Source: Schmidtea nova
Taxonomy: Eukaryota
DNA: 64,000 nt
Direction: 5' to 3'
NCBI GenBank assembly: GCA_044892505.1
Contig: CM097882.1
Span: 183,520,001 to 183,584,000, forward strand
Each line of letters starts with the position of its first letter. The stretch's first letter is position 1. The position numbers and the translations under genes are program-made. Below the pieces are notes generated by a model that was not told where the DNA came from, ran no database searches, and worked only from the letters and a program-made list of their open reading frames with translations. This document shows positions 12,866 through 42,942 of the stretch, in pieces.

Positions 12866-13327
12866 ATGAACGACAAATTAAAAGAAACAGAAGAATTCTT
12901 AAACACGGAAAACAAAACATACGATGAATTATGCGAGAAAATAAGTCGAATAAGAGAATCCGGATTCAGAGAACCCATGACACAAACTGAAGAGACAACA
13001 GAGCTGATAAAAATAATGGAAAGAGTAGACAAAATAGATATAACAACTAGATACAAGTGGTACCGAACGAGATTAGAAAATGCTGATGTAAACATAAAAT
13101 GCAGACAGTTAGAACAACAATTAACTCCAACATACCACAAGTGGACGATACAAGGAACTGAGACAGCTAAGAAATTTAAACTCTGTTACATATGTCGAGA
13201 AAGAGAGAATAAAATCATGTTTTTACCATGTGGACATTTCCGGTTTTGTAGAATCTGTGCAGCCAATTGCGACAAATGCCCGATGTGCAATCTCGAAATA
13301 GACGAAAGAATTATTGTGTATTTATAA
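12866..13327 (+). CDS. 153-aa protein with C-terminal IAP/MDM2-type RING finger (putative E3 ligase)
   Basis: CYICRERENKIMFLPCGHFRFCRICAANCDKCPMCNLEIDERIIVYL-stop; no BIR domain; ATG after TTTAG|CA. Confidence 0.85.
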   Translation: MNDKLKETEEFLNTENKTYDELCEKISRIRESGFREPMTQTEETTELIKIMERVDKIDITTRYKWYRTRLENADVNIKCRQLEQQLTPTYHKWTIQGTETAKKFKLCYICRERENKIMFLPCGHFRFCRICAANCDKCPMCNLEIDERIIVYL

Positions 13328-13370
13328 TAAATAAATTTTGAAATTGAATAATATGATTTGTGATAAAGGA

Positions 13371-13555
13371 TAATGAGAATTAATATGATAATTCATAATG
13401 AGAATTAATATGAGAATTCGTAATGAGAATTAATATGAGAATTCATAATGAGAATTAATATGAGAATTCGTAATAAGAATTAATATGAGAATTCATAATG
13501 AGAATTAATATGATACTTGATAATGAGAATTAACAATGAGAATTTAAAATGAGAG
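13371..13555 (+). repeat. 25-bp tandem array TAATGAGAATTAATATGAGAATTC(A/G), ~6 copies plus decay
   Basis: Read directly from the sequence. Confidence 0.9.
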
Positions 13556-14015
13556 TTGATAATGGCAATGACAGAAATCATGATAACAATTGATATTTAT
13601 AAATAATTTTTGAGCTGCTCACGAGTAGTCCGTTAAGCACCTATTGGGAGGAACCAACTGATCAACTTACCCGAGATGTATAGAAAGGGGCCCATCGCGG
13701 AAATTGGAAAGCTTTTGTGATGTGACTGATCACCACATCTTGCATTAGTAGACCAATGCGATCTTTTTGTATATTTTGGTTGGGGTGAAAGGTAGGAACA
13801 ATCTAATGAGGTTTAAGTGCATGCAGAAAATACAAATAAAAATGAGAGAATAGAACACTGATCAGTGGAAGTCGAAAGAACATTAAGTAAATAGGTAGAA
13901 TGAAAGTTAATGTGATAACTCTCATAAAAATAGAGATAATTCAGCTGAATGATAACTAGCGAAGTGGATAATTGCGGTTAACCGGTTAAAGAGATTAGTT
14001 AAATACCTTGTATAA

Positions 14016-14410
14016 AAAGGTCAAGGGCAAATAAGCCATATTAGTTACTCTGAAAGAAGGGTCAAGGGCAAACAAGCCATATTAGTTACTCTGAAAGAAG
14101 GGTCAAGGGCAAAAAAGCCATATTAGTTACTCTGAAAGAAGGGTCAAGGGCAAATAAGCCATATTAGTTACTCTGAAAGAAGGGTCAAGGGCAAATAAGC
14201 CATATTAGTTACTCTGAAAGAAGGGTCAAGGGCAGACAAGCCATATTAGTTACTCTGAAAGAAGGGTCAAGGGCCAACGAGCCGTATTAGTTAATTACTC
14301 TGAAAGAAGGGTCAAGGGCCAACGAGCCATATTAGTTAATTACTCTGAAAGAAGGGTCAAGGGCCAACGAGCCATATTAGTTAGTTACTCTGAAAGAAGG
14401 GTCAATGGCA
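14016..14410 (+). repeat. 41-45 bp tandem array AAGGGTCAAGGGCAAATAAGCCATATTAGTTACTCTGAAAG, ~9.5 copies
   Basis: Read directly; later copies carry a 4-bp insertion. Confidence 0.95.
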
Positions 14411-14650
14411 ACATAAGAATTTGAACCTATGATTGCAATAGTGATAGCAACACAAGGAATGTGAACCTGTGATTGCAATTGTGGATGGCAACACAAGGAA
14501 TGCGAACCTGTGATTGCGATTATGGATAGCAACATAAGGAATGTGAACCTATGATTGCGATTGTTGATAGCAACGTAAGGAATATGAACCTAGGGTTGCA
14601 TTGTGAATAACAACATAAGGAATATGAACCTAGAGTTGTAGTCGTCGACG
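14409..14650 (+). repeat. ~41-bp tandem array CAACATAAGGAATGTGAACCT(A/G)TGATTGC..., ~6 copies
   Basis: Read directly; abuts the previous array. Confidence 0.9.
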
Positions 14651-15222
14651 AAGTAAGAATAGTGAACACTAGAATTTGAGTAATACGAGTAAAGATGATT
14701 AAGTAAACTAGAGATACAGTATGCATACAAGTAGAAATAAGAATAGGAGAAATTAGAGTTGATTAGTGAGAATAATGAGTAATGACGATATAATGAATAG
14801 TAATGAAAGGATAAAACTGAGTCAGGAGAACTCAGGGGAATTAAAGCGTCTGAGCGACAAATTTATTTGGGAGACCGAGGGAAAAGTAATGAATTTATTT
14901 GATAACGATAGATAATTATTACGACCATATAGATAATTGTTACCAGTGAATAGATAATTTAAATAGACTTAAATAAAGGGGAAACCGGGAATGGGGAAAC
15001 AATGGAAACCCAATAATGAGGAATAAAAGCGCAACGATAACAATGATGTATCGTTGAAGTGACTTTTTAATTTAGATATACGGAACAGAACAAGTCAAAA
15101 CAACCAGCCAATCAATCAGAATACGATAACAGAGAAACAGAAAAATTGATAAATTAAAGAAAAGTAAACCGAGATCAAGAACAGTTAAAAACCAAGAAGT
15201 TAATAATTCACAGAGAAATAAA

Positions 15223-18200
15223 TTGAGACCAAGAGCAGTTAGTGCTACAATTCAAAAAGTTGATAAATCACAGAGAAGTAAATCGAAACAAAGAGCAACC
15301 AGTGTTACAAAGAAAACAAATCCTAAAGGAAGTAAATCAAGAAGAGTAATAGTAGAAAAGTCGAAAATCGAAAACAGCAAATTTCCTAAAACTAACGAAA
15401 GTGAAACAGAAGAAAGTTCAAGTGAAACCTACGATAATTATAATAATACGGAAGCATCAGATAACGAGTCAATAAACACAGAAGAAGTAGAAGCAGAAAT
15501 TGATAATAATTCAAACGAAACGAATAACGAGCATACTAGTGAAACAAGAGGAAACGAGAGTAAAACGACACAAGACAGCGGAATCGAAATGAACGAACAT
15601 AAAGAAGAAATTAAAGATAAATTTACTGGAGAACCATTCAATGGAGATGCCAGCAAGTTAGAAACATTTTTAAAAGAATTTGGTATATTTGTAGAAGTAT
15701 GTAAATGGAAACCAGAAACGATAAGAAGCAGAATTCAGTTATATTTAAAAGACAGTGCGTTAGATTTATATTTAGAAGCTAAAAATTCGGACGATCAACT
15801 CGATAGTTGGGAAAAGATAAAGAATTTTTTCCAGCAAACGTTTGGAATAAATAAAGTATTAAATGAAGCGTTTACAGAATTTTCAATGAGGAAACAAAAA
15901 GTTAATGAATCAAATGCAGTATATGCAAGTGAATTAAAGAAATTGGCTAAATTAGCATTTAATCAAAATAGTCCAATGAGTCCAGAATTAATGGCAGCAA
16001 TTTTTGTGGGGGGATTGAGAAGACCCGATATAAGAGCACAAGTTGGATGCCAAGGTTGTAAAACAATAGATGAAGCGTTGGAAATCGCTAACAGATTTGA
16101 ATTACATATGATCGGAAGTGAAGGAAGAATTTACCTAGCAATGGATACGACACAAAATGAACAAGCAATGAAGATAAACAATCATATCCCGAATTCACAA
16201 CAATTAAACCGACCACCACCTCAAAGGAGAAATGAGGGAAACAAAGTACAAAATTTCGGAAACCAAAATAATTATAATACGCAAGGACAGACAAAGCAAT
16301 ATCAAACCTGTGGAAAGTTAGGACATTGGCAACAAGAATGTTTCGTGAACTTAAATTGTAAAACGTGTGGAAGAAAAGGACATTCGGAAAATAGATGTTA
16401 CCAAAGATCATGTTATAACTGTGGACAACCAGGTCATATGGCAAAGAATTGCCAACAACAAAACAACCAGCAAAGGAATTGGTCGAACAACGGAAATCGA
16501 CAAAATTATGCGAATCAACAGAGTAACGGAAACCGTCAGAATTTTGAAAATCAACAGAGTAATTATAACCAGAATAAAAGTACCACCAAAGAAATACATT
16601 TATTACAAGAAGTTCAGAGATTGACAGAGTTAATAAATAATACACCGAGAGGAAATCAACAAACGAATCAACAACAAATGAATATGATGAGAAAAGTAGA
16701 AAGTGAAAATGAACGACTAAATCGAGAAAGTCAAGCACGACATGCTCAAGAATGGGCAAGAATACAAAGAGAAGACGAACAGAAACGACAGGAAAGAGAA
16801 CGACAACCATTGAGAATTAATATGATGAGAGCAATGAATCAAACAAGAGATAACAAAGAAGATATTGAACCAGAAACAAACCAGATAAACCCAAATCCGG
16901 AAGATGAAGAAAACCAAAAAGAAAAAGTACAAGAAAACGAAGACGTTATTAAACAAAAAAGGATGTTGGTAGTCATGCCAAACGATCATGTATTTCGATT
17001 TGAATATGATGAAAAAGAGGAAGTAGGAGTATTAATTAATAAAGTAAACAAGACGATTCCGGGAATGACGAAACTACCCCGAGAAGCATTTTTACAGACA
17101 GAAGACGAAGCAGCAATAAAATTGAAACCAACCGACATATGGAAAGATTTAGGAGTACCAATGAATAAAATGAAAGTCACAGTTATCCGGGAAATAGAAG
17201 AAAATAACGATGAAGAGAAATCAAAACCAGTAACAAAAGTCAAAAGTAGAGCATTGAAGATATTTGAAGAGAGAATCAAACAGAGAAAAGCAATGGAAAT
17301 AGAAAAACGAAGAGGCCAAATAGATGAATCAGAAAACAATGACAACAAGGAAGAAATACCACCAAAAAATGTACCAGATAAAGTAGAACAGACCGCACAT
17401 ATAAATATGTTAAGAAACTTAACTAGAGAATTTTCAGATGTAGAAAGTGACAGTGATGTCAGTAGTTTAGCAGGAGATATGCTAAAAGAACCAGAAAATG
17501 AAGACAACAAGATAGAAGTAGCGAAGACGCCAGAAAATATACAAATAAAAGAAGATGAAATTCAGAAACTATTAGAAAATGCGTTAGAAGTGATTTATAA
17601 CGAAGAATTTATTGATAAGAAGCGATATCGAAAATTTATAAGAGCAGTATTCCGAATGAACTACAAAGAACGGTTACAAAGTCGTGAAGTAGAGATATTA
17701 TCAGGATACGTCGTCAAACTATTAGATGAACCACTCCACGAATACATAATTTTAATAGAAATAAACGAATGTTCACCAAGAATTTGGATCAAATCTCCAT
17801 GCACGAACGAAATTTATCGATGGGTAGAAGACAGATTGGGAAGTTCATATAAAAACAAATTTATATATTCAGGAAATGAACTTGTAAGACGAGCAACGCA
17901 TTTGGTAGAAACAGGCATATGGCCAGGAGAGATAACAACATTATCAATATGCGACAATAAGAAAGAGGAAAATTTACAAGAAATCGCAAAGGAAGCAAAT
18001 ATGTGTTTTGAGATGAGAATTAAACCTCAGTTAGTAGAAAAGAAAGAAAGAATTCTCAGAGAAAATTTAAATTCACTAATAGAACAAATTATTCAACAAA
18101 TCGGCAAGAATAGAGAAGAATTAACGAAAACTGAATATGAGAAATTAAAACAATGCATCGAAAATATACGAGATACCAGCCATACGAGAGATTCGTCATA

Positions 18201-21200
18201 CAAGACTTGGAAAGTGATCGCGAAAATGGGAAAAGCGATGTTTAAACAAGGAGAAATTGGAGATTTAAAAATCAAAGTGAAATTACCAAACGAAGACACA
18301 AAAGAAATTGAGGTAATCGTGGATTGCACAATAGAAGAATTAGTTGATGTTATCAATGAGACTTTATTACAACGGGAAAAAGAAGACGAATTAGAAGACG
18401 ATATCATCATAAAATATAATGAACACGTACTAGAAGATCATGATGAGAGACGATTATATAAAATCGGTATATGGGATAATCACCAAACAATTCACGTTAT
18501 CAGAATGGATGATACGTCAAGAGAAACACCAAAAGACGAAAAAAGGAGACAAGAACGTCGAAGAGAAGAGATGCACAAACTAAGACAAATAATAGAAATT
18601 TATCGAAGATGGCAGATACAGCCAGAATGGGAAAATGTATTAGGAGAATTAAACTTCAACGAACGCCGAGTAACACCAGTAGAGAAACACTGGGATGTTA
18701 AAGAGAAATGCTGGAAAGCAAAAGGAGGTATATATGAAGAGGAATTTAGACCAGAAATGGAAGACAAATATGAACCAGAAATTAGAAGAGTTTGTATGGT
18801 GACAAGAAAAGTCATGCCAACAGATTTAGATGGACCAGAAACCGCAGCAATATGGTTAGAAACGCAAAGACGAAAAGCTGACGAACTTATCGAATTACTA
18901 AAAGGAAATGTACAAGGAAAAAGGCGAACGATCAAAGGATTAACCGAATTTTTCGTAGCAGGCGGCGAAGATATAATTAGTTTACGAAAAGTAGCAAAGG
19001 TAGTAGCAGAATATAAACGAGTTAACGAGTGGTGCCCAGAACAATTAGACAATGTAATCAAGAAATGGAGAAACCAAGAAAACTCCCAAGAACCACCGCA
19101 GAAAATACATTTAAGGATAATATATCCAGATCGAGAAAAAGAAGAGCTTTGGGTAAGATTAACTGAAAAGATTCGAGATGTTAAAAAGAGATTAAAATAT
19201 GAACCACCATTTCATCTACAACATCAAGGACGATCACTAGAAAACGATATGGAAATTTGGATAACGCCAGCACAGTTAGAACTGGCAAATACGTTAACAG
19301 TAGACGCAATAGCAGGTCAACCATTAAAACTTAAAGAGAAAAGAGTAAAAGAAAGCGGAGATACTCAGAATCTAAAGAAAACGATGCAAATAAGGCCAGG
19401 AACAAGCGCAAGACAGTATGAAACAACATCAATAAAAACCCAAGAAAGAACTCGACCACAACCATACGATACAGAAGAAATCTTAACAGACTGTGATGAC
19501 ATGCTAGAAGAATTAGCAAAATTGACAAAAGAAAAGGGCAATAATATTTTCGAAAGAGTACAAGAGTTACCCACAACGTCACAAGCAATCAATACCCAAG
19601 ATGAAGTTGAGCAAGAAATAGAGATAGAAGAAGTGAACGAAATCTCTGAAGAAGAAGCAAGAGGAGCAAATACAGAAAACGAACGATTAACACAAGAAAT
19701 GGAAAAATGGTGGGAACAGAGAAATAATGAACCAAGAGATGTTACAGAGGAAACTGGACGAGAAACCAGATTGATTGAAACAGGTACAACAATGGATAGA
19801 CGACCTAGAGGTAGATCAAAGACAGATCCAGCCAACGTAACCAACAAAACCAAAGAGGAAAGGAGACAAGAGAAATGGGGATTATGTTTAAAGAAACTCA
19901 ACAAAATAGCAGAAGCAAAAGACCAGGAAATAACGCAAAAATGTCAAGGTGAAGGATGGATATCAAAAACACTAATGGAAATATTGGCGATAATTGATCC
20001 AGAATTGAAAAAATGGTGGAGAATAAACGAAATAAGCGACAAGGCTAAAGCATTACATAGCGCAATCGCACCAATCTTACCCGAACTGATAAAAGAGAAG
20101 ACAAAATCAAGCCATTTAGATTGGCAATGGACCACAACGTTGATAAAGAGGTTAACTGAAGATGCAGAAAACGATAATAAATATGTGATAGCAATTGCGT
20201 ATACAATTTATAACTTATTAACATTGAGTAGAGGTAATCCAAAATCTATGGCAATAGAGAAACATATCAAAAATACGGCAAGCATCATAGCAAAAGAAAT
20301 AGAACCATACGTCATCAGTAAAGGAGGATGGGAAACATTTGCTAAAACGAATCAAAGAAACAGCCAAGCAAAGAATATGAAAAAGAAATTTGAAGAAATT
20401 TTAGGAGAATTAGAAAAAGAAAAGTCAGGAACAGGAAGTGGAAAATCTTCACTAAACCTGAATTCAATCATAATGATGATACTAATATGGCTAATTAGCG
20501 TTGAAGGAGCAACGGCGTTCGAAGTATTTGATTGCGACCAGATGGCATTAGGAGAAAAATATTCATTAAGAGGAACCGAACAATGCAAAGATGCAACTCC
20601 AACAGAATTAAAAGTATTACATAAAGAACAAATATACCACGTATATCAGGAAGCCGACTTAATAAAGACAACAGTTAATGAATGTAAAATATATAAAACA
20701 AGATTTGCTTTTTATTGTGGACATCGCCACTACTCTGCAATCGTAATGCCAGGAGCGGAAAGAGAAGCGATAATGTTACAAGGAGAAGATTGCAATAAAT
20801 TGTTCAAACATGGAGAAGTCGAAACAAGAGATCGAATAAAGATAAGAGGAAAAGCTGGAGTAATACTACAACAAACTTACTATGTAGCAGGAGCTATCAC
20901 AGGAGGAGAAGGTTACTGTCAAGGAGCAACATATCCAATATTTGGAGTACCAGCAACTAACATGGTAGTAATCGACACATATACGGTAGAACTAAAAGCG
21001 TACGAAGCATATTTTGACCCAGCAACAGGAGAAATGAAGACGTTATCAATGTGTAAAATTGAAGCCAGTACCTGTCAAACCGGTATGTCGACTTTAACAT
21101 ATAGAGCAAAAGCAAATGAATGCCAATTACAATTATTAAAGGAAGCAGAGTTCGACGAAGTACAAGGGAAAATCTTTCAGGAAGAAGATGATGATGAAGT

Positions 21201-22830
21201 AGCAAGAGGAAAACGTCTACAGGAGACAGTAAAAGGAGAGAAACCGTTCACCGCTAAAGTACAAGAAAAAGAGGTAAGGATGAGAGAGACGCCAACCGTA
21301 TTGGTTACATCAAACGCAAATATAGGAATGAGGTTTGTAAAAGGAAAACCGACATTAAAATGTGGTGTTTCTATGTTAGAAACAAATTATCCAGGTATTT
21401 ATGTATCAAGACAAGCAGCACCAAATGCAAAACCCAAGGTAGATACTACAGACATCAAATTACACGTATATTTAAATAACAAATTGGATTTTTTATTTCA
21501 TAAAGGTCAAGCATCAATGGAGAAAATATACTACGATCTCATTAACAACGATTGTATATTGAACAGAGAAATATTAAAGACGAAATTAGCAGTAGCAATC
21601 ACAAACCCGAATAGTGCTATGCCATTATTACCACTTAACGAAGGTCATTTTGGAAGAGTAGTTGGAGAAGTTATGTACGTATATATATGTCGAAAGACAC
21701 AGGCAAACGTAGCAACAACGACCAGAATACGACAAGGACAATGTACCAATGAATTGGAAATTGAATATAAAGGGAAAATAAGATATGTACAACCAGTGAC
21801 AAGGATCATTAATCCGGTCAGTTTTGAACCAAACCCTTTCAATTGCAGTAACGCATACGGACCACTATATCAGAAACCAGACGGAAATTGGGTCATGTTT
21901 CCGTCAAAATCAGAAGTACAACCACCTAGAGAATTCGAATTGATGCAACTTTCAAAAGGACGAAAATTTTCCAATATAGATGTAAATAACGGAGGAATTT
22001 ACAGTGCAAAAGATCTCGAAGCAGCACGACAAAATATATTATTTCCAGCTAGAAGAGAAGCGGTATTATCTAGCATTGTAACAATAACAGGAGGAACAAG
22101 TTATCAAGGAGGACCAAATTATGAATTATTATTGTCACCAGCACACTTTAGGAAAGCAACAGAAAATATGATGAAAGCAATGTGGGGACGATTTTTAATT
22201 TTCGGACAAATGATGGCCGGAATACTAGGTGTAATTTTAATCATACAAATAATACGAGTGATAATCACACAAATGCTAGCATGCTTTGATATTTATAAAA
22301 GAGAAAAGAAAGTTAATTGGAAATTAATAGCAGGATTTTTACCATTTTTAGCAAAAACGATGGTGTTACATGGTCACTCCAAAGATATTCACAGAATAAA
22401 ACGATTATTAAAAATACTGGCAAAAATGAAAGGAACGGATGAAGACGTGGGAAGAAAATTCAAAAAGATAATGACAGATGAACAAGCGAGACTACAATTA
22501 AAAAGAGAAAGAAAAGGATTATGGGAAAGAATAAGAGGAGATAAAACTCAAGACGATTCCAGTGATGACGATGATAATAATGACGACTGTGAAGGAGGAC
22601 AAAGGTATAGAAACCAAGCACCGCAATATAACGACAAGAATCCAGCAGAAGCATGGAAATGTCACGCACCTCCACCAACAATGTATCAAGAACCACTACA
22701 GGTATCAGGACACAGAGCAATGCAAATGATGCCAATGACAATTTTATATCCAATTATACCAGAAGATTTTAAACTAAGACGATGTAGAAGTATGGATCCG
22801 CAAGACGATTCACTCACAATTGCAGTCATG
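15223..22830 (+). CDS. Polyprotein, 5' part: Gag CA + zinc knuckles, 3-4 ubiquitin-like domains, Bcl-2-like domain, class III envelope glycoprotein; interrupted at 22830 by the Maverick
   Basis: CA-like FTGEPFNGD...FLKEF...SWEKIKNFF...RKQKVNESNAVY; knuckles 16300-16452 (CKTCGRKGHSENRC, CYNCGQPGHMAKNC; the first has Y for the first Cys); BH2-like YVISKGGWETF 20308-20340; signal + FEVFDC at 20518; TM 22192-22266. Start uncertain: track start is TTG, frame open from 15130, first ATG at 15589. Confidence 0.9.
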
Positions 22831-23484
22831 AGTAGGGGATAGTGAGGTTACGGAGCCACTTTTTTCACATAGCAACGGTTGCTAAGGTTATTACACATAC
22901 ATCATTATATAATCATCGAAGAACACGTTGCCAGGGTAATTACACACACATATATCAATTTATAGTCCTAGTGAAATATGTTGCTAAGGTAAACACACAC
23001 CAATGTATTTTCTTCGAGGAAACTGTTTCCAGGGTAAATACACACAATAGGGTGACTTCCCTGAGGACCTTGTTGTCTGGGTAAACATACATACATACAC
23101 ATCAATATATAATTCTTACTGATAGATGTAGTTAAGGTAACTACACACAGCAATATATAGTCCCCGAGGAAGATGATGTCAAGGAAAATACACACAACAA
23201 TATATAATCCCCGAGGAACCTGTTGCCAGGGTAAACACATATCAATATATAATCATCGAGGAACCTTTTGCTAGAGTAGACACACACATTAAAGTATTGT
23301 CTCCTTGGAACCTGTTGCTAAGGTAAATACGCCATTGTGTAACGGCAGTGACTACTGTTGGTAACATCAAAACATACAACACATTAATTATTACCCGTAA
23401 CACACTCGATAACATGTTTTTACTTAATCGAACGACGTTTTTGTTTTAATGTACTGACTAACATTTCGAGTAGTTTTTTATTAA

Positions 23485-23670: not shown

Positions 23671-23852
23671 ATAAAAATATTGACACAAAAAAAAAATGAA
23701 AACCCTGAACAATAAAACCGTTTGAAATCTTGTCAATACATAAAACTTTAAAAATAATTAAACATAATAAACTAAAGAAATATAAAACTAAATATAATGA
23801 AACCAATTATTTTTTAACAAAGTTTTATTCAATACAAATCTGAATTGGATAT

Positions 23853-31367: not shown

Positions 31368-34300
31368 ATGGTAAAATATTACCGATATTCGTATAAAGGA
31401 GTCACGTTTTTTATATGTCCCGTATGTAAGACCACTCAAAATTCTACTTTTTTGAACTTTTATGATGACCATAAGGATCATTTAAGGAAATTTAGATCTT
31501 CGAAAAAATCCATTTTTAATTTAACAATAGATAATAGTGATATCAATGTTATTAATAATAAAAGAAAAATCCTTATCGATAATCCACTACCTACAAAAGT
31601 TAGAAAATTAAGTAATATAGTTGACGAGGTAATATCCGATATGAAAATTCTTTCCGACTCTGACACAAGTTTTAATAATGACATTAACACCATAGATGTT
31701 CAATATGGTGGGTCCCTTCTTCCTAACGTTAAATTTGATTTGAGAAAATCTCACGCTGTTGTAAAAATGGATGTTTCTCACTTGGTTTTGAAAACTTTAA
31801 TTTTACCTGATATTTTAATTAATAAACTAAATAATGTTATTAATGAGATGGGTTCAGTGAAAATACAATTTTGTATTGACGTAGAGTTTGAAAAAGATGG
31901 AGAATTTCAATCCTTCATCATTTCAAATTCTGCGAGACCTATGAGTGATACCTTTTTTGACGAGGGTATTGCTCTTTTAAATGAAAAAATAGCATTAATT
32001 AACGATAAAGGGAGTAATTGGGTTATTAACAAAGTTAATGAAATCCATTTCGTTGTAACTAAATTTGCTCAAATATCTCGATTGAGTGGACGTAGTCACA
32101 TTCAAACCCCTCAATCCTTACAGTTAAAATATTGTACAGTAAATGTAAGAAATTCTGACGACTTGTGTTTTATTTATAGCATTTTAGCTATTTTGAAATA
32201 TGATGATGTAGATGGACACAGATATAGGACAAGTAATTATAATCTTTCGGATCTTGTCTTTGACCCTTCAGAAATGCCCATGAGACTCTGTAATATTCCA
32301 AAATTTGAGGCTAAAAATCCCGGACTTGCTATTAATGTTTTATCTTATGATGAAGATGCTCTTCTTGATACCTTGGAAGACCCTGAAGTTTTTAAACATC
32401 CTTGTGTCGATATAATTCATAGGTCGAAAGTTATTGACGGTACTCCTATTAACTTGATTTTGTTGGAAAGTTGTGATGCATATCATTATATTGCAGTCAC
32501 CGATCTTGATAAGCTTTTAAATTACGACAATAGATCTCTTTCTGTAGCTCGCGTACAAAGTATATGGTGTCATCGATGCTTGAATGGATTTCGAAAACAG
32601 GAAGCATTCGATTGTCATCAACAGTTGTGTGCTAAAAATCAATTAGGCACAACTCTTTATACTCTGCCTAGAAATAAAGATTTACAATTTAGTAATTGGG
32701 GCAAAACAATTACCCCACCTTTTGTTGTTTACGCCGATTTTGAGGCAATCTTACCTGCTGATGATAAGTACTTTCAAAGACATGTCCCAATATCTGCCGG
32801 TCTTTTACTTGTAAATTACTTTACTGGAGAAAAGATTTACAAGAGTTTCTTAGGTCTTGATTGCGTTACTAATTTTCTTACTGAAATTAGTAATATTTCT
32901 GAAACTATTGTTTATCCCTTTTATAGAACTAATTACAAGAAACCTCTTTTTATGACATCGGCTAATCAACAATCTTTTGACTCTGCTACTATTTGTTATC
33001 TTTGTAGGAAAACTTTAGTACAACCAGTCAGAGACCATGATCATTACACTGGTGAATTCTTGGGAGCTGCTTGTAATTCTTGTAATCAATCCCGTCGGTT
33101 ATACAAGTTTTTACCCGTTATTTTTCATAATTTAAAGGGTTATGACTTGCATCATATTCTTAAATATGGTTTGGCTAATTTCAAAACTTGGAAAATTTCT
33201 TGTATTCCTACAACCAGTGAAAAATTCTTAACTTTATCAGCAAGGGTCGGTGATTTAACCATTAAATTCATCGATTCTTGTCAGTTTGTAAATTCTAGCT
33301 TAAATGACGCTGTTAAGACTCTTACTTGTTTGCCTTTGACTAGATCTGAATTCACCGGGACTATTGTTGACTGTAAGGGTATTTTTCCTTATGATTTTGC
33401 AACATCTTTAGAAATTCTTAACAACACTTATGAGTTGCCACCAATCTGGAAAGGTGTTAAGCAGGCTGAATACGACAAGGCATTAGTTATTTGGAGGGAA
33501 ACCCAGTGTCAAACTCTTTGTGACTATATGATGGTCTACCTTAAACTGGATGTTTTTCTTCTTGCTGATTTTTTTCAACAGTTTAGGGCTAAATCTATAG
33601 CTCACAATAGACTTGAGCCTTTGAATTTCTTGGGTATTCCAGGTATGTCGTGGGCTTCAGCGCTTATTACCTTCGATGAACCTATTGAATTGCTCCAGGA
33701 TATGGAGATTTATAATTTTTTCGAAGGGGGGATCCGTGGTGGTTTGACATTTGTCAACAAGCATCATGTAGTATCCTCCGAAACGACTGAACTTTTATAT
33801 ATTGACATAAATAATTTATACAGGTGGGCTTTAAGTCAAAACTTACCTTACGGTAAATTTAGTTGGATCACAGATCAAAATAAATTAAATTAATTAATTA
33901 AATTAATGGATGTTGATTTGGCTATTTTGACTTATGGCGTGACTTTTGAAGTGGATCTTGAAATCCCTTCAGAAATTCACGATAAATTAAATGACTTTCC
34001 AGTAGCGGCAGAGAAAATGTGTGCTCCGGGTTCAAAAGTTGAGAAGTTAATGCTGACGCATTATCCAAAGTTCAACTATGTTGTTCATTGGAGGCTTCTC
34101 AAGCTTTTTGTTTCTTTGGGTGTTAAAATAACACGAGTTCATCGGGCTGTTCAGTACAATCAGAAACCCATTTTTAAAAAATATATAGATACAAACACTG
34201 AACTTAGGGCAGCATCTTCTACAGCTTTAGATAAAAACTATTACAAACTCTAGAATAATAGTCTTTATGGGAAAACGGTTGAAAATCTTAAAAAACGACT

Positions 34301-35087
34301 TAATTTACGACTATGTAATTCAGCATCAAAACTGATTACATATACTTCAAAACCTACCTTTAGAAAAACTTATAGAATTGACGATGACCTAATTTCTGTC
34401 TTGCTTAATAAGGACTCTGTGTGTTTAGATAGACCCAGCTACATTGGCCAAACTGTACTGGATTTATCTAAACTTAGGATGTACCAGCTGCAGTATGAAG
34501 AGTTACAAAAATATCGTAATGAATTCAACTGCGAAATTAACATCGTTGCTGGTGACACCGATTCTTTCTTCTTGGAGATTAGAAATTGTAGGTTAGATAT
34601 TCTTTTACCGGCCATGATAAGAGATTGTCTTTTGGATACATCGAATTACGACCCTAGTCATTCTTTATATTCGAAAAAACTTGATTCGGTTATAGGAAAG
34701 TTTAAAGACGAAAATAAGGGTCATAAATATAAGGAATGGGTTTTTCTTAGACCTAAATGTTATAGTCTTTTAGGTGATAAGGAATGTTTAAAGGCTAAAG
34801 GCCTCTGTTTGAAAGATACTAAACTGAAGCATCGGTCTTATCTTGATTGTTATAGAAATAATACTATAGTTTCAGTAGAGCAGTCTCGATTTGTGAGTAA
34901 AAATCATCAAATTTTTACTAATAAGTTTTCGAAAATTGCCTTGACTAATCTTGATGATAAAAGACTTTGGGTTGATAAAAATGAAAGTCTTGCATACGGA
35001 TATTATAAGGGATGTGGCTCGTTTATAGACCAATCAAAAGATCAGGTTGGTGTTCCAGTTTCAGATCCAGCTCTCAATTCAAATTAA
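31368..35087 (+). pseudogene. polB: Protein-primed PolB, right arm (two internal stops)
   Basis: Mirror of the left copy; shared TAG at 34251-34253, private TAA at 33891-33893, G>R at 33822, V>A near the C-terminus. Confidence 0.95.
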
Positions 35088-35718
35088 ATATCCAATTCAG
35101 ATTTGTATTGAATAAAACTTTGTTAAAAAATAATTGGTTTCATTATATTTAGTTTTATATTTCTTTAGTTTATTATGTTTAATTATTTTTAAAGTTTTAT
35201 GTATTGACAAGATTTCAAACGGTTTTATTGTTCAGGGTTTTCATTTTTTTTTTGTGTCAATATTTTTATTTAATGTAAAAATAATTGTTTCTGTTTACAA
35301 ATATTATTAAATTTCATCTGCTCTTGTAGAATCGTCTTTAAAATTTCGACTATTGTCACAATTCTCGCATTCATTTCATCCGTTTTCAAAGTTCTCATAT
35401 TCGATTTTCTAAAGATCATTTTACAAAAATTATATAATATATCAAAAATTATCAATTAATAAAAAACTACTCGAAATGTTAGTCAGTACATTAAAACAAA
35501 AACGTCGTTCGATTAAGTAAAAACATGTTATCGAGTGTGTTACGGGTAATAATTAATGTGTTGTATGTTTTGATGTTACCAACAGTAGTCACTGCCGTTA
35601 CACAATGGCGTATTTACCTTAGCAACAGGTTCCAAGGAGACAATACTTTAATGTGTGTGTCTACTCTAGCAAAAGGTTCCTCGATGATTATATATTGATA
35701 TGTGTTTACCCTGGCAAC

Positions 35719-36290
35719 AGGTTCCTCGGGGATTATATATTGTTGTGTGTATTTTCCTTGACATCATCTTCCTCGGGGACTATATATTGCTGTGTGTAGT
35801 TACCTTAACTACATCTATCAGTAAGAATTATATATTGATGTGTATGTATGTATGTTTACCCAGACAACAAGGTCCTCAGGGAAGTCACCCTATTGTGTGT
35901 ATTTACCCTGGAAACAGTTTCCTCGAAGAAAATACATTGGTGTGTGTTTACCTTAGCAACATATTTCACTAGGACTATAAATTGATATATGTGTGTGTAA
36001 TTACCCTGGCAACAGGTTCCTCGGGGATTATATATTGTTGTGTGTATTTTCGTTGACATCATCTTCCTCAAGGACTATATATTGCTGTGTGTAGTTACCT
36101 TAACTACATCTATCAGTAAGAATTATATATTGATGTGTATGTATGTATGTTTACCCAGGCAACAAGGTCCTCAGGGAAGTCACCCTGGAAACAGTTTCCT
36201 CGAAGAAAATACATTGGTGTGTGTTTACCTTAGCAACATATTTCACTAGGACTATAAATTGATATATGTGTCTGTAATTACCCTGGCAAC
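35719..36290. repeat. 295-bp tandem duplication (second copy with an 18-bp deletion) in the right TIR only
   Basis: AGGTTCCTCGGGG at 35719 and 36014; the net +277 bp explains the arm-length difference (59217-58940). Confidence 0.85.
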
Positions 36291-36392
36291 GTGTTCTTCG
36301 ATGATTATATAATGATGTATGTGTAATAACCTTAGCAACCGTTGCTATGTGAAAAAAGTGGCTCCGTAACCTCACTATCCCCTACTGTCATG

Positions 36393-39300
36393 ACATCAAA
36401 TACAGGACCAGTATTAACTACAACCATAGAAATAAATGGAAAAGAAATAGAAGCGATGATAGATACAGGAGCAAACATTTCGGCAATAGATATTAAATGG
36501 ATACCGCAAGAACAGAGACAAGAAGTTGAAAGAACAAATGTTCATGTAATCGCATGTAGTAAAGAGATAGTTGAAGTTGCAGGAAGATGGTGGGTGAAAA
36601 TACGACACCAAAATATAGAAATCGAAACGTATGTAGCAGTAATACCGGCTTTAAGTGTACCATGTATAATCGGAACAGATTTAATGCCAACACTATTCAA
36701 AGAAATAATCATCGATCTTGGAACAATGAGATTAAAGGACAGAACAAGGAAAATAGGTGCCATGGAAGCAAAAATAATGATACCGGAAGAAAGAATCATG
36801 ACGAGATCACAAACCATCAGAATAAATATGCTCAGAGCGGAAGAAATTAACACAACTAGTCAAGTAGACAGTGAGAAAATCGATGTTGACAAAGAAATCG
36901 TACGAAAAGCCAAAGAAATAAACGAAAGATGGGAAATCAGACAAGGAAAAGACGTTTTATGGGATATACGACAAATAATCAGTGATTACGCACGAGGATG
37001 CCCAACCAAACCAATCATAATAGAATTACTAAAGAAAATACCAGAGATACTCGTATTACAAGATACAGGAGGTGCAACTGCACTACACAATGCCATAAGT
37101 TGGGGTAAAACGGAAAAGGTAAAAGAATTCTTGAAAATAGCAAAAGAAACGAATCAAAATCTAGACATTGTAAATCGAGAATTAGAAACGCCAATGATGA
37201 CAGCAACACTAAGCTTAGCAGATAAAAAAATAGTAGATATGCTGATCAACGCAGAATTCAACTGGACAGCTCGAAATAGAAGAGGAAACACAGTTTTAAA
37301 CCATGTAATAATGAGTGAAAATCAAATGATACTAAAACATATAACAACCAACCTCACATGGGAAATCGATGAATTAATCAAAGGAGAAATTATGAAGGAA
37401 GCGATTCGGAAAGGAAACACTAAAACCATATGGAAACTAATACAATGGAAATGGCCGAATAATAAAATATGGGTATTAGATATAAACAAAGAATTTAGCG
37501 AAGGACAGAACGCGCTATTGAGATACTTATTAGAGTTTACGTGCGATCAGAGAACAATGTTAGCACTAATAAATAGAGGAAAAATAAATATTAGTAAAAA
37601 CGAAGAGGAATATAAACTAGAAGTCGAAAAGAAAGCGTTATTCAGGAAAATTTGGGTATGGTGTCAAAAACAACTACGCAAAGACATAAGCTACAAAAAT
37701 CTAAATGATTTCCAAGAAAAGTATAAAACGATAATAAAGGAATACAAGAAGCTAGTGGAGATATTAAACGATCCAGAAAAATTTAATCAAGCGATAAATC
37801 AGAAAGAAGAAGAAAGTAAAAGGATACTCACACCATTGTTCAACGCGAAAATAGATTACCAAGAAAGATTAGATGCAATACAGAAAAAAGCAAAGGAACT
37901 ATTACCAGAATTCAAAGATACAAAATACGCCTTGGAAATACTTGGCGCAATAGTAGAAAAAGTACACGCGTACGCGAAAGGAATATATAATGGAAACGAT
38001 ATAATAATTATAAAAAGAGAAATGCCAGTTGCATTTTTACTAACTAAAGAAAGAATAATGCCGATTCATAGAGCATTGAGAGCAGGAAAAGACAGTAAAG
38101 TAATCGAAATCGCAAGATTAATGCATCAATGTGGATGTGATATGAATATGATAGACGAAAAAGGAGACACCCTCATGGTATACGCAGCAAGAGCAAAAAC
38201 AAAAATCAAAGTATTAGAAGAGTTATATAAAGCAGGTGCAGGATTAATCGGGAAAACGGTCAAAGACAACTCAATATTAGACGTGACATTATTAGGTCCA
38301 AACTGGGAAATGTTGAATTTCATTAAAACGATAACAAACCAAGAAGAGATAGATTATTTAACAGAAACCGTAAAAGGACCAAGCGTATTGACAATGATGC
38401 AAAACATCAAATTGACAGAAGAAGTATTAAACTGGAAAATACCAAATACAAATAAACCAGCATTTAAAGTTAACAAGTTTATGGAGAATAATCGAAATTG
38501 GTGTATCCAAAGCGCACTAATAACTTATATATGGCCCGAAATTGTAGAAATTTTCATGAGAAGAGAAGATCTGAGATTTACAAACAAGCCCAAAGAAACG
38601 GAAAAGGTAGTTAAATGGAAAGAATTGATGAAAACACACCTTCAAAGATGGATAAAAGCCAAGAAAGAAATTATACAGTATCAGTTAGACAACAAAAAGA
38701 TACCCGAAGATATAGAATTCCAAGAATTCGAAGCAAGTAACTTAACATCACTATATTATGCAAAACTAATAGAAACAAGTAATGTCGAGGACGACATTTT
38801 TAACGAGCCAGGGAGAGATAATAATACTGACAATGATGATGACGATGAAGAAAACAAGGACGACGAGAGAAATAAAGACGATGATGATGAAAACAATCAC
38901 GGAAATCCAGATAACCACGAACAAACCAATAAAGAAGACGAGAATCAAGAGAGAAATACAAAGAACCACGAATCCAAAGAACAAAGAGAAGACAACCCTA
39001 AAAACAATCATGAAAAGAAAGGAACAAGTTACAGAAGGAATCCATTATTCAGACCAGAAGTATTAATGTTCGCAATAATCATAACACTTATGGGACAATG
39101 TGAAGCAACGAAACAAGAGATATCAGTAGAAATGGAAGTACCAATACAAAAAGCATCAACACAAATAATGAATTCAAAGGACATTGAACAAGTATGTTGG
39201 GTAAAAGAGAATGAAATTCTCGGAGATAACAACCTATTACGATGTATAATTCCAAACCCCGATCGAAAAACCATAATAATAGACGAAATGGATATGGAAA

Positions 39301-41033
39301 CATGGTACAGAATATGTACAATCAGAAAACCCAAAGACGAAAAATCACACAAAACAGTTACATGCCAAGTATACAAGACACCCAAAGTCCGATACGAGTT
39401 CGCCAATGGAATAGACCTTCCAGGACCAATTTATTTTAAAATAACAAGAGCACCAGCATCTAGAAAAGTCTTACAACAACCAAGAACCAAGACAACAATA
39501 CCAAGTACAAGGAATACAACGGATAAACCAGAAGCAAACGGAGGAAATACAACGGTTAAACCAGAACCAAAAAGACGAATGAAACAAACCACAAGAGTAA
39601 TCTATAACTCCAAGTTGTTATGTATAGCACTTATTATGACAATACTGAAGCGATTAGAAGAAGGAATAGAGATGGATACAATGACATTAATAGACATGGA
39701 AGAGACACAAATGACAAATCAAAAATGTTGGTTTAGAAACGATGAAAAATTAGAATTAAAGGAATCAAGAGAAATTCAGAAACTGGAAGCGAGTAAAACG
39801 AACAAAGTAATCAAGATAATAAAGATAAAAACAGACAGAATTCATAAACTATGTTTATTGGAAAAAGAGAGAAACAAGAAAGGAATAACCAATTGTAAAA
39901 CATTTCAAGCAGGAAAAATAATAACGTTTGCAAGAAAAATGGGAAAAGGAAACAAACAGAATTTCCAGAAATTAACCATAACGTTAGAAATAACGGGAAT
40001 AGAACAAAACGTAAACGGAGTATGCTGGAGAAAATACGAGAAAGAAACGAATAAACCTAAATCATCACAATGTCAAACAATCAGAGGAACAACTGCAGTA
40101 CAAATAAAAAGCTTAGAAAGAAATCAAACTTATGAAATATGCCTAATAAAGGAAAATGATCAAATAACGAAAGAAGATTAAGAATGCAGAATATACAAAA
40201 CACCGAACAGAGTAAAAACCAGTAAAGCAATACGAAAGAATAAAAGACAACAAAAACCGAAGCATACCACTACCGAAAGTCAAACAGAACCAGAGAGGAA
40301 AACCTCAGCAACACTTATACTTTGGAAATTAGATGACAAAACAGTGGAAATATGTTGGACAATGATCAAGAAATACGAAGAAAGACAACCACAACAATGC
40401 GAAAAGATGAATAAAGAAGAGGAGATCAGAATTCAGAACCTACAATTGGACAAACAATACGAAATATGCGCAATAGAAAAGGCAGATAAATTTGGAAACC
40501 AGCAAGAAAAATGTGGAAACTATTATACACCGACAAATACAACGATCAAAGGAAGAATCAAGAAACTGACCTTCGGAGAATTGAAGCAAACAACGAAACA
40601 AATGGAAAACGAGGAAACAATAATAGATTCTTATGCCCAATGGAAACCAGAGAAAGTAATTCAGGAAGTCAAAAGGAAACAACAAGAACGACAACAATTG
40701 GAACTCAAATTGAAAGGACAATATGGACCAATAATCAATCAGAGCAAATTCACCCAAATCAATGTTAACAAGCAAGGAAGAGAACTAATTGGAGTAGGAA
40801 TACTGGCAGTATGCGTACCAATAATAATAATAATATTATCAATAATATGGTTATGGGACATAATAAAAAAGAAACCAACCAGACAATGGCCAGATATAAA
40901 GATCATGAATTGTAAAATCAAAATACCTGAAGAAGTGAAGAAAGAATTCCAAAGAAGAACCAAAGGCAAAGAATTTTGGAAGCAAATAGAAGACGAGGAG
41001 CGACACGATGAAAAAGCAGTGATGATAGTATAG
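36393..41033 (+). CDS. Polyprotein, 3' part: retropepsin, two ankyrin clusters, acidic linker, internal signal peptide, four FN3-like repeats, TM; one in-frame TAA at 40179-40181
   Basis: Joins in frame to 22830 (...IAVM|TSNTG...); MIDTGANISAI...CIIGTDL; GATALHNAISWG, GNTVLNHVI, GDTLMVYAA; frame stays open from 40182 into track ORF 40344-41033. Confidence 0.9.
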
Positions 41034-41154
41034 AGGGTGGGATATGACTGTAAATAATATTGTAAATTACAAAGCATTACCGTATATAGTATGGGTATTA
41101 GTATTATAAAGTAGATAAAAGAGAAAAGAGAAAAATAATAATGTATTTTAGAAA

Positions 41155-41490
41155 ATGAATGTACGAGAAGAAACAACCGAAATGACTTTGACTATGCGAT
41201 GGAAAGCACAATGTGAAACGTTAGTTCGATCAATTAATGCACTACAGAATCAACTGGTAGAGAAGCAAAATATATTAGCAGATTGTTACAACAATATTTT
41301 CGAACAGTTACATAAAATAGAAGAGCAACAGAGAACAATAACAGAACTAACAAGAGAGAATCAAAGATTGAGACAAACGATGGAAATAAATCAACTAACA
41401 AGAAGAGATGAATCAGAAGGTCAATGGCTAGATTGGGTAATAAATGGATTAGAGAATGGTATAGAACCAGATTCAACGAGCGAACCATAG
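41155..41490 (+). CDS. 111-aa coiled-coil accessory protein
   Basis: Heptad pattern; ATG after TTTTAG|AAA; same A-rich composition as the polyprotein. Confidence 0.7.
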   Translation: MNVREETTEMTLTMRWKAQCETLVRSINALQNQLVEKQNILADCYNNIFEQLHKIEEQQRTITELTRENQRLRQTMEINQLTRRDESEGQWLDWVINGLENGIEPDSTSEP

Positions 41491-41586
41491 TCAAATTGTA
41501 GCGGAAAATTGTATATATGTAAAAATAAAACTCTAGAAAAATCAAAAACAAAGAACAAATCAATGTATGTATATATTATTGTAGAA

Positions 41587-42942
41587 ATGGATAAAGAGGA
41601 ACGAGCAGTCGAGATTTTGAGAGCAGCAAACAGAAATTGGAACAAGAGATTTGTATGTGGATATTGTAATAATTTATTACGGAAACCAAAGCAAACCGCC
41701 TGTGGATGTAGATTATGCACCAGATGTGTACAAATGTTGGAACTAAAGAAAATAACAGAATGTCCAGAATGTAAAGAAGGACAAATAGTATTAGACGAAA
41801 CAAGACCAGATAGAGCAACTCAGAGAGAAATCATGAGCATATTAATTGAATGTATAAATCCACCGTGCATATGGCAAGGACAAATCAGCGAAATTGAAAA
41901 TCATATAGAAAATTGTGAAGAAAAGAGAAGCGAATGTGAAAGGTGTAAAGAAACGATAATTTTAAAAGACAAAGAGAAACACAGAGGTGAATGCAAAGAG
42001 GAAGAAATCGCATGTAAATATTGCGAAATTCGAGAAACAAGGAGAAGAATTGAAGAGGAGCACATCAATATAAAAGAAGAAAAAATATGCGAACAGTATG
42101 TAGGAGTGTGCCCAAACAAATGTGAAATTACCGAAGAAGTGAAATTACGAGAACATTGGGAAAAGTGTACAGAAATACCAAGAGAATGTCCTTACAACAG
42201 ATATGGATGCAAGGAAAAGAAGTCTCAACAAAATATTAAACAACATTTAGAAACAGAAGCAATCAATCATATTGAAATGACAGACAGAACAATTCAGAAA
42301 TTAGAAAAAGAAGTGGAATCTCATAAAATAATGATGAACCTATTATTAGAAACGAGAGAACAGTTTGAATTAACCCGAGGAAAGATGGAAAAGAAAATAA
42401 TAGCCATCAAGGAATTAGCAAAAGGAATGAAAGTACAATATAACAAGTTAATACAAGAAATTGATGAGAAAAAAGATTTACCAATAGCACCTTATGTGTG
42501 GAAAATAACGGATTTCCGAAATAAATTGGAAGATGCACGAAGCTTCAAGAAAACTGCGGTAATAAGCCCACCATTTTACTTATGGAAAAACGGGGCTAAA
42601 GTGAGACTGAAAGTATATCCAAACGGAGATGGGAAAAGTATTGGAAAACACATATCAATATTTTTTGCGTTTTGCAAAGGAGAATATGACGATTTAATCG
42701 ATTGGCCGATAGGAGTAGGAGTAATGATAAAAATCAGGGGTTTAAACGAAACCATAGAAAAGAGATTCACGACAGAAAAAGGAGCAGTTACGAGTAACAG
42801 ACCAACAGAAGAATGTGGATTAGCAAGTGGAGAACCACACTTTGTATTACAAAGCAAGATATGGGGATTATTGTATGAGGACACCTTATACATAGAAATG
42901 GAAAGGAACGAGAAGGCAGATAGAAAAGGATGGTTGGCGTAG
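41587..42942 (+). CDS. Full-length TRAF-like protein (RING, TRAF zinc fingers, coiled coil, MATH)
   Basis: CGYC...ACGCRLCTRC...CPEC; zinc fingers such as CPYNRYGC...HLE; MATH YVWKITDF...SPPFY...LKVYPNGDG...HISIFF...GEYDDLIDWP; likely ATG at 41587 after TGTAG|AA. Confidence 0.93.
   Translation: MDKEERAVEILRAANRNWNKRFVCGYCNNLLRKPKQTACGCRLCTRCVQMLELKKITECPECKEGQIVLDETRPDRATQREIMSILIECINPPCIWQGQISEIENHIENCEEKRSECERCKETIILKDKEKHRGECKEEEIACKYCEIRETRRRIEEEHINIKEEKICEQYVGVCPNKCEITEEVKLREHWEKCTEIPRECPYNRYGCKEKKSQQNIKQHLETEAINHIEMTDRTIQKLEKEVESHKIMMNLLLETREQFELTRGKMEKKIIAIKELAKGMKVQYNKLIQEIDEKKDLPIAPYVWKITDFRNKLEDARSFKKTAVISPPFYLWKNGAKVRLKVYPNGDGKSIGKHISIFFAFCKGEYDDLIDWPIGVGVMIKIRGLNETIEKRFTTEKGAVTSNRPTEECGLASGEPHFVLQSKIWGLLYEDTLYIEMERNEKADRKGWLA

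What the first reader, a model, noticed from the sequence alone, without database searches (positions are those of the whole stretch)
12866..42942. Coherent cell-death/NF-kB manipulation toolkit on one retroelement
An IAP-type RING, ubiquitin-like domains, a Bcl-2-like domain, ankyrin repeats, a receptor-like ectodomain and a TRAF all map to the TNFR-TRAF-cIAP-NF-kB/apoptosis axis, a set typical of poxviruses or herpesviruses. Retention of these genes while RT/IN are absent suggests they, rather than replication enzymes, are what this lineage contributes to a helper or to the host cell.
Basis: inference. Interest (0 to 1): 0.72.

Follow-up and report, generated by a model that had tools for sequence, protein, structure and literature searches.

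The report
Polymerase-less Burro-like retroelement with accessory genes
This is a relative of the known giant Burro retrotransposons of flatworms that has lost its copying enzymes but still carries cell-survival and signalling genes; that cargo was already described, and it is a looser set than the single TNF/NF-kB pathway first proposed.

Summary
The genes are real and sit in one LTR element (9673-47774; LTRs differ at 1 of 2794 nt; 4-bp TSD). RT, RNase H, integrase and dUTPase are absent. An IAP-type RING, a complete TRAF and ankyrins are firm. One ubiquitin-like domain and the Bcl-2-like domain are weak but consistent calls. The pathway story is overstated: the 'receptor' ectodomain is four fibronectin-III repeats, not TNFR; the RING has no BIR; the ankyrins show no IkB-specific match; clear planarian NF-kB orthologues are disputed. 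This cargo and the 'apoptosis tinkerer' idea are already published for autonomous Burro elements. Gag, Env and protease are retained too, so selective retention is not shown; one internal deletion would give the same picture. 45% of the cited span is a separate palindromic Polinton-type insertion that splits the polyprotein gene, and a stop interrupts the FN3 array. What looks new: a Pol-less Burro-like form, the FN3 membrane protein, a stand-alone full TRAF, and an operon-like 3' cassette with acceptor-like sites suggesting spliced-leader processing. Best reading: a helper-dependent selfish element whose cargo keeps producer cells alive. New variant of a known kind; interest 0.4.

The parts
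9673..12466 (+). 5' LTR, 2794 nt, TG...CA; preceded by TSD CATA; contains a 196-aa ORF (11295-11885) of no known family
   Evidence: Pfam and NCBIfam give nothing significant
12476..12493 (+). PBS-like stretch beginning TGG, 9 nt after the LTR; resembles a tRNA-Pro primer site (recalled, not tested)
   Evidence: sequence
12866..13327 (+). RING-only ORF (153 aa): IAP-type C3HC4 RING at the extreme C-terminus, no BIR
13370..14632 (.). tandem arrays (25-nt and 41-nt units) in the leader region
15130..22830 (+). 5' part of the polyprotein gene: basic leader, Gag, CCHC knuckles (two intact, one degenerate), ubiquitin-like segments, Bcl-2-like domain, Env
15739..16458 (+). Gag capsid-like domain and zinc knuckles
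   Evidence: Retrotrans_gag E 1.4e-5, zf-CCHC E 7e-9
16927..19329 (+). region with up to four ubiquitin-like segments; only 18256-18519 has direct, weak support; none ends in Gly-Gly; 31% identical to P0001 over 468 aa
19852..20379 (+). Bcl-2-like helical domain with a BH2-like GGWETF stretch; weak but consistent
20452..22266 (+). Env: internal signal-like segment, Monjiviricetes-type fusion glycoprotein, TM
   Evidence: PF24664 E 4.9e-71; hydropathy
22831..36386 (.). separate Polinton/Maverick-type insertion, 13,556 nt, AGTAG...CTACT ends, 6-bp TSD GTCATG, almost wholly a palindrome with two stop-bearing pPolB copies; splits the polyprotein gene between Env and protease
   Evidence: Maverick hallmarks in PMC8097293 passages
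36420..36692 (+). retroviral-type aspartic protease (DTGA)
   Evidence: RVP E 8.7e-9
37035..38240 (+). two ankyrin-repeat clusters, about 115 aa after the protease, where dUTPase-RT-RH-IN lie in Burro1
39045..41033 (+). receptor-like region: two signal-like segments, four FN3-fold repeats, TM (40785-40835), tail of about 60 aa; a TAA at 40179-40181 lies inside repeat 3
41155..41490 (+). small coiled-coil ORF (111 aa)
41563..42942 (+). complete TRAF: RING (Cys where His is usual), zinc fingers, coiled coil, MATH
43048..44151 (+). long coiled-coil ORF (Smc/Rad50-like, weak)
   Evidence: NCBIfam E 0.008
44225..44788 (+). small single-pass membrane ORF of no known family
41034..44224 (+). four spacers of 72-121 nt between cassette ORFs, each with TGTA-N-AT 16-20 nt after the stop; three end in an acceptor-like AG 3-4 nt before the next ATG
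44981..47774 (+). 3' LTR, followed by TSD CATA

Best explanation
A non-autonomous, envelope-bearing Burro-like LTR retroelement of a planarian-type genome (host inferred). Shown: LTRs, TSD, Gag-UBL-Bcl2-like-Env then PR-Ank-FN3-TM, a 3' cassette with a full TRAF, no Pol enzymes. Inferred: the LTR transcript gives a polyprotein cut by its own protease and by signal peptidase; the small ORFs are made as separate mRNAs by splicing at the acceptor-like sites, plausibly spliced-leader trans-splicing; the RNA is copied and integrated by a helper element's RT/IN. The cargo is inherited Burro-type accessory load that serves the element itself: Bcl-2-like and RING proteins delay death of the expressing cell, and TRAF/ankyrin/UBL modules interfere with ubiquitin-dependent stress signalling (TRAF-TBK1/MAPK rather than demonstrably NF-kB). 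This copy is crippled after Env by the Polinton insertion and the stop in FN3 repeat 3, while RING, TRAF and the 3' cassette remain open.
For: Layout matches the published Burro polyprotein (gag, CCHC, Ubi/SUMO-like, BCL2, env, PR; PMC6431247 section 7). The only relative among 1.84 billion representatives, P0001, is collinear over the UBL region but carries an in-frame MATH, which is the Burro1 layout. A TRAF/MATH module is thus kept in three different positions (Burro1 ORF1, an upstream ORF in D. tigrina, a 3' ORF here; the MATH domains here and in P0001 are only 32% identical), which suggests selection at lineage level. 16,194 of 18,958 internal bases outside the insert are open frames despite an 8% stop chance per codon. 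5 of 7 stops are followed by TGTA-N-AT at +15 to +20 (0 of 200,000 simulated draws reached 5), and 5 of 7 first ATGs have an acceptor-like site against 21 of 493 other ATGs (both patterns chosen after looking). Near-identical LTRs with intact TSD and no Pol. Planarian TRAFs are needed for cell survival (PMC7586133) and BURRO1 is transcribed in differentiated cells when SMEDWI-2 is lost (PMC8532177).
Against: One copy only: Pol loss could be a private deletion after insertion. No expression or dN/dS data. The Bcl-2 and UBL calls are below significance. A RING without BIR could as well promote death by degrading IAPs (recalled knowledge). The TRAF ATG and the first Gag ATG lack the adjacent acceptor pattern (2 of 7). 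No clear polypurine tract precedes the 3' LTR. Grohme et al. 2018 could not be read, so this form may already be one of Burro-2 to -4.
Confidence: 0.6

Rival explanations
1. One-off deletion copy: an ordinary autonomous Burro-like element lost dUTPase-RT-RH-IN in a single internal deletion at or shortly before this insertion. The cargo is present only because it lay outside the deletion and says nothing about a specialised lineage.
For: Everything except one contiguous Pol block is kept, including Gag, Env and PR. LTRs differ at 1 of 2794 nt, so decay has had no time. The copy already tolerates a 13.6-kb insertion and a stop. Gag/PR-only derivatives are common (28 of 115 non-autonomous families in sugar beet, PMC13570524 passages).
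Against: Protease runs into the ankyrins in one open frame with no RT or IN remnant, which a random deletion need not give.
Confidence: 0.25
2. One reading: a coherent poxvirus-like TNFR-TRAF-cIAP-NF-kB kit is the lineage's selected contribution to a helper or to the host.
For: TRAF and IAP-type RING are firm. FN3 arrays occur in cytokine receptors, so a decoy role is possible (one search lists IFNAR, gp130 and GHR among tied rows). S. mediterranea has RHD-ANK proteins, and a planarian nidovirus ANK was proposed as an IkB mimic (PMC6211748 section 29).
Against: No TNFR cysteine-rich domain, no BIR, no TRAF motif in the FN3 protein's tail. No IkB among 51 ankyrin hits. No clear NF-kB homologue in PMC13563047. 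Autonomous Burros carry the same kit. Structural genes are retained equally.
Confidence: 0.1
3. Domestication: the host keeps the TRAF/RING/Bcl-2-like genes for tissue turnover or immunity.
For: Planarians have a large unexplained TRAF/MATH expansion (121 or more transcripts) and TRAF RNAi is lethal (PMC7586133; PMC8807557).
Against: The insertion is very recent, keeps both LTRs, Gag and Env, and has no introns. Burros are piRNA-silenced, and BURRO1 RNAi did not change the smedwi-2 phenotype.
Confidence: 0.05

Closest known systems
Burro1/GYPSM1 and Burro-2 to -4 giant gypsy-like elements of Schmidtea mediterranea, and the Dugesia tigrina Burro-like element (as summarised in PMC6431247 section 7; Grohme 2018 and Jurka 2007 not seen)
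   Same: Giant LTR element; Gag with CCHC knuckles, Ubi/SUMO-like, BCL2-like and mononegavirus-type Env upstream of protease in one gene; MATH/TRAF, ankyrin, Smc-like coiled coil; apoptosis/ubiquitin hypothesis.
   Different: No dUTPase, RT, RNase H or integrase; no BIR but an IAP-type RING-only ORF; a full RING-ZnF-CC-MATH TRAF as a 3' ORF instead of an in-frame MATH; an FN3 x4 membrane protein not listed in the review; 24.5 kb without the insert.
Gag/protease-only non-autonomous LTR elements (TR-GAG-like; PMC13570524 passages)
   Same: LTRs, PBS-like site and TSD kept; Gag and PR kept; RT/RH/IN missing.
   Different: Far larger, keeps Env and about 16 kb of open accessory frames; animal host; family status untested.
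Accessory genes of large DNA viruses (vBcl-2, ankyrin proteins, baculoviral IAP/RING, decoy receptors; recalled) and the ANK/FN2 domains of the planarian nidovirus PSCNV (PMC6211748)
   Same: Host-derived death and signalling modules carried by a mobile genome.
   Different: Analogy only: no TNFR decoy, no BIR, FN3 rather than FN2; no sequence link to viral proteins was shown.
Polinton/Maverick elements (for the insert only)
   Same: Terminal inverted repeats, AGT.../...ACT ends, 6-bp TSD, protein-primed PolB.
   Different: No integrase or capsid ORF of 100 aa or more; the whole element is a 6.4-kb-arm palindrome with two broken polymerase copies.

Membership tests
Burro (autonomous giant gypsy-like LTR elements) | N-terminal retrotransposon Gag with CCHC knuckles | tested here: met
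   PF03732 E 1.4e-5; zf-CCHC E 7e-9
Burro (autonomous giant gypsy-like LTR elements) | Mononegavirus-like Env between Gag-side domains and protease | tested here: met
   PF24664 E 4.9e-71, RVP E 8.7e-9; separated here only by the insertion
Burro (autonomous giant gypsy-like LTR elements) | dUTPase-RT-RNase H-integrase after protease | tested here: not met
Burro (autonomous giant gypsy-like LTR elements) | MATH/TRAF-C and ankyrin cargo | tested here: met
Burro (autonomous giant gypsy-like LTR elements) | Ubi/SUMO-like and BCL2-like domains before Env | tested here: inconclusive
   right position and consistent best hits, all below significance
Burro (autonomous giant gypsy-like LTR elements) | BIR domain | tested here: not met
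   no Pfam BIR; no BIR Cys/His pattern in six frames
Burro (autonomous giant gypsy-like LTR elements) | Length above 30 kb with LTRs | tested here: not met
   24,540 nt without the insert; 38,102 with it
Burro (autonomous giant gypsy-like LTR elements) | Sequence kinship to the named Burro-1 to -4 references | not testable with these tools
   no named Burro sequence in reach; P0001 has the Burro1 layout at 31% identity
Non-autonomous Gag/PR-retaining LTR elements | Intact LTRs, TSD, Gag/PR kept, RT/RH/IN absent | tested here: met
Non-autonomous Gag/PR-retaining LTR elements | Multiple copies sharing the same Pol-less structure | not testable with these tools
   no eukaryotic genome collection available; one copy in the window
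IAP (cIAP/XIAP/viral IAP) | C-terminal IAP-type RING | tested here: met
   XIAP E 2.5e-10
IAP (cIAP/XIAP/viral IAP) | One or more BIR domains | tested here: not met
TRAF | RING, TRAF zinc fingers, coiled coil, MATH in one protein | tested here: met
TNF receptor superfamily | Cysteine-rich ectodomain repeats | tested here: not met
   repeats have 2-4 Cys per about 80 aa and model as a beta-sandwich matching FN3; the CRD pattern matched only the RING
TNF receptor superfamily | TRAF-binding motif in the cytoplasmic tail | tested here: not met
   0 of 4 recalled motif patterns in the 64-aa tail segment
IkB-like ankyrin proteins | Specific similarity to IkB/p105 ankyrin domains | tested here: inconclusive
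   51 PDB hits at E<=0.001 are DARPins and generic ankyrin proteins; a divergent mimic is not excluded
Bcl-2 family | Bcl-2 helical fold with BH1/BH2 motifs | tested here: inconclusive
   BH2-like stretch aligns to Bcl-xL at E 1.3; model pLDDT 40; no canonical BH1 NWGR (motif recalled)
Polinton/Maverick (insert) | TIRs, 6-bp TSD, AGT/ACT ends, pPolB | tested here: met
Polinton/Maverick (insert) | Integrase, ATPase, protease and capsid genes | tested here: not met
   the only ORFs of 100 aa or more in 22831-36386 are pPolB pieces

The most novel reading that the evidence does not exclude
A long-lived, multi-copy satellite lineage of Burro-like elements that has shed Pol, rides on a helper, and expresses a virus-style cassette (full TRAF, RING-only IAP derivative, FN3 decoy-type membrane protein) as an operon resolved by the host's spliced-leader trans-splicing, with the leader possibly also supplying the Gag start codon; such element-borne genes would account for part of the unexplained planarian TRAF expansion.
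Probability: 0.25. Interest if true: 0.72.

Novelty: new variant of a known kind. Interest (0 to 1): 0.4.

Why it matters
The cargo itself is known from Burro. If the Pol-less form is a family, it gives a natural test of the untested 'tinkerer' idea: selection on each cargo gene can be measured after replication genes are gone. An intact stand-alone TRAF inside a retroelement also warns that some of the 121 or more planarian TRAF/MATH transcripts may be transposon-borne. A retroelement using host trans-splicing to run an accessory operon would be an unusual expression strategy; my one search on this listed no such case, which is thin evidence of absence.

Tried and rejected
Homologue searches: PR-ankyrin region against longer proteins (0 of 2853 candidates) and near-length proteins (0 of 8000); TRAF gave 1 distant hit at 24% among 4632 candidates; the UBL-Bcl2 region gave 1 protein. 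So no dN/dS, tree or copy comparison was possible. Bcl-2-like domain: no Atlas result was obtained, the single-sequence fold was unreliable and its Foldseek rows are not significant. The whole UBL region against PDB gave only a chance hit; segments U1, U2 and U4 are not detectably similar to U3. The FN3 profile against PDB sequences gave nothing meaningful. Env has no PDB sequence match. CARD/death-fold guesses for helical segments got no Pfam support. No tRNA or Rfam family in the window. One PxQxS in the 187 aa after the Env TM is chance level. Codon-position identity among the FN3 repeats is biased by protein-guided alignment and was not used. NCBIfam ankyrin hits to Legionella families are far below cut-off and generic. 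An assembly artefact for the palindrome is disfavoured but not excluded: the arms differ by 6 internal substitutions (4 transitions) and in minisatellite length. Grohme et al. 2018 is not held and the review has no readable supplement, so Burro-2 to -4 maps and Fig. 2A were not seen. Viral and metagenome contig collections stayed unchecked.
Full report
Setting. The window is AT-rich and holds one LTR element. Two 2794-nt repeats, 9673-12466 and 44981-47774, begin TG, end CA, differ at one base and are flanked by the 4-bp duplication CATA. A PBS-like stretch follows the 5' LTR after 9 nt (the tRNA-Pro likeness is recalled). No N gap lies inside the element. A planarian host is inferred from the architecture and composition, not shown.

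A foreign insert. 22831-36386 is not part of the retroelement. It has AGTAG...CTACT ends, a 6-bp TSD (GTCATG) and terminal inverted repeats, and it is almost entirely a palindrome with 6393-nt arms, each with a protein-primed PolB gene (PF03175 E 9.3e-26) that bears a shared stop; the right copy has one more. These are Maverick/Polinton hallmarks (PMC8097293, passages).

Domains. RING ORF 12866-13327: IAP-type, best PDB hits XIAP (E 2.5e-10) and cIAP2/cIAP1, but no BIR in it or anywhere in the element. The frame 15130-22830 carries Gag (E 1.4e-5), zinc knuckles (E 7e-9), a ubiquitin-like region, a Bcl-2-like domain and a Monjiviricetes-type fusion protein (E 4.9e-71). Of four candidate UBL segments one has weak direct support (Pfam E 0.025-0.044; ubiquilin-3 UBL, E 1.3, the only two PDB rows), and the matching part of a homologue draws ubiquitin-family leads in the Atlas at 0.85-0.86, which is lead level. 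The Bcl-2 call rests on a BH2-like stretch (Bcl-xL is the only PDB hit at E<=10, E 1.3) and on non-significant Foldseek rows from an unreliable model. After the insert come protease (E 8.7e-9) and, about 115 aa later, ankyrins; 51 PDB hits are DARPins and generic ankyrin proteins, none IkB or p105. The receptor-like region has two signal-like segments, four Cys-paired repeats and a TM. Repeat 4 folds confidently (pLDDT 85) as fibronectin type III (Z 8.6, rmsd 2.5, 76 aligned, with many FN3 rows tied). Its tail has none of four TRAF-binding patterns, and a TAA at 40179 lies inside repeat 3. 41563-42942 is a complete TRAF. Two coiled-coil ORFs and a small membrane ORF complete the cassette.

Absence of Pol. 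No RT, RNase H, integrase or dUTPase family appears in the main ORFs, in a six-frame motif scan or in 75 of 82 alternative frames (the other 7 duplicate 5'-LTR frames). 16,194 of the 18,958 internal bases outside the insert are accounted for by the listed frames. This holds for this copy only.

Relatives. One protein among 1.84 billion representatives matched the UBL-Bcl2 region: P0001 (UPI00060E6093; E 7.8e-52; 31% over 468 aa). It is collinear but has a MATH domain in frame where the window has about 28 residues; that MATH is 32% identical to the window's TRAF. Three other searches gave nothing close, so dN/dS could not be run.

What is known. Section 7 of PMC6431247 (read whole) describes Burro1/GYPSM1 with Gag, CCHC knuckles, MATH, Ubi/SUMO-like, BCL2, Env, PR-dUTPase-RT-RH-IN, BIR, ankyrin and Smc motifs, notes an upstream MATH ORF in D. 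tigrina, and already proposes meddling with apoptosis and ubiquitination. The toolkit is therefore a known trait of RT-positive elements. Grohme 2018 and Jurka 2007 were not seen; Burro-2 to -4 may include a Pol-less form. Searches listed no paper on a non-autonomous Burro or an FN3-bearing one. On NF-kB the literature is split: PMC13563047 (passages) found seven divergent RHD factors and no clear NF-kB homologue acting downstream of TBK1, while PMC6211748 (section 29) reports RHD-ANK host proteins and suggests a viral IkB mimic. Planarian TRAF/MATH transcripts number 121 or more and two TRAFs are needed for survival (PMC7586133, PMC8807557, passages). BURRO1 is silenced by SMEDWI-2 and appears in differentiated cells on its loss; BURRO1 RNAi did not rescue that phenotype (PMC8532177, passages). 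Gag/PR-only non-autonomous families are common in plants (PMC13570524, passages). PMC7958881, PMC11410931, PMC13238120 and PMC8797187 (passages) added nothing on the cargo.

A sign of expression. The 3' ORFs are separated by 72-121 nt. 5 of 7 stop codons are followed by TGTA-N-AT at +15 to +20 (per-site shuffle chance 1-5%; 0 of 200,000 draws reached 5), and 5 of 7 first ATGs have a T-rich AG 2-4 nt upstream, against 21 of 493 other ATGs. Both patterns were chosen after inspection, so the numbers overstate the case. The Gag frame is open for 153 codons before its first ATG (chance 3e-6) and opens at a CAG. Flatworm operons have spacers near 100 nt (PMC8629364, passages), S. mediterranea trans-splices, and flatworm leaders end in ATG (PMC12582326, passages). 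Cis-splicing from an LTR donor fits equally well. Either way the cassette looks built for separate mRNAs, which counts against 'not expressed' for the lineage.

Mechanism. Shown: structure, domain content, lack of Pol, two lesions. Inferred: helper-dependent copying; polyprotein processing by protease and signal peptidase; spliced accessory mRNAs; a selfish role in keeping the producing cell alive and muting TRAF/ubiquitin stress signalling (0.6). A one-off deletion copy (0.25) explains the Pol loss with no lineage-level meaning. The strict TNFR-cIAP-NF-kB reading (0.1) and domestication (0.05) are weaker. The retention argument fails as stated because Gag, Env and PR are retained as well and the copy is too young to show decay. 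The better evidence of function is that a TRAF/MATH module persists in three different positions in distant relatives.

Verdict. Real, Burro-like but not filed as Burro proper (Pol and BIR tested and absent). New variant of a known kind; interest 0.4.

Noticed in passing
window 22831-36386: Fold-back Polinton-type element: 6.4-kb arms 99.8% complementary around a 365-nt spacer, only pPolB genes, both with the same stop; resembles a snap-back defective genome that was still integrated with a 6-bp TSD.
   Followed up: partly
window 1-896, 55555-55902, 57494-58117, 59134-59583: Older relics (70-85% identical) of the same Polinton-type family, including a CTACT end at 896 and a pPolB fragment.
   Followed up: partly
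window 41034-44224 and 11886-11905: TGTA-N-AT 15-20 nt after stop codons (poly(A)-associated UGUA or Pumilio-type site; labels recalled) and acceptor-like AG just before ATGs: an operon-like cassette.
   Followed up: partly
window 15130-15588: 153 open codons, basic at the start, before the first Gag ATG; the frame opens at a CAG, so the start may come from splicing.
   Followed up: partly
window 11295-11885 and 46603-47193: 196-aa ORF inside each LTR, coiled coil plus a lysine-rich NLS-like stretch; no family match.
   Followed up: partly
window 10291-10500 and 45599-45808: Three 42-nt hairpin-like repeats within each LTR; no Rfam match.
   Followed up: no
window 50252-52156 (-): Apparently intact hAT transposase ORF, about 635 aa (PF05699 E 1.3e-5).
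   Followed up: no
window 41656-41772: The TRAF RING has Cys at the position usually His (eight Cys).
   Followed up: no
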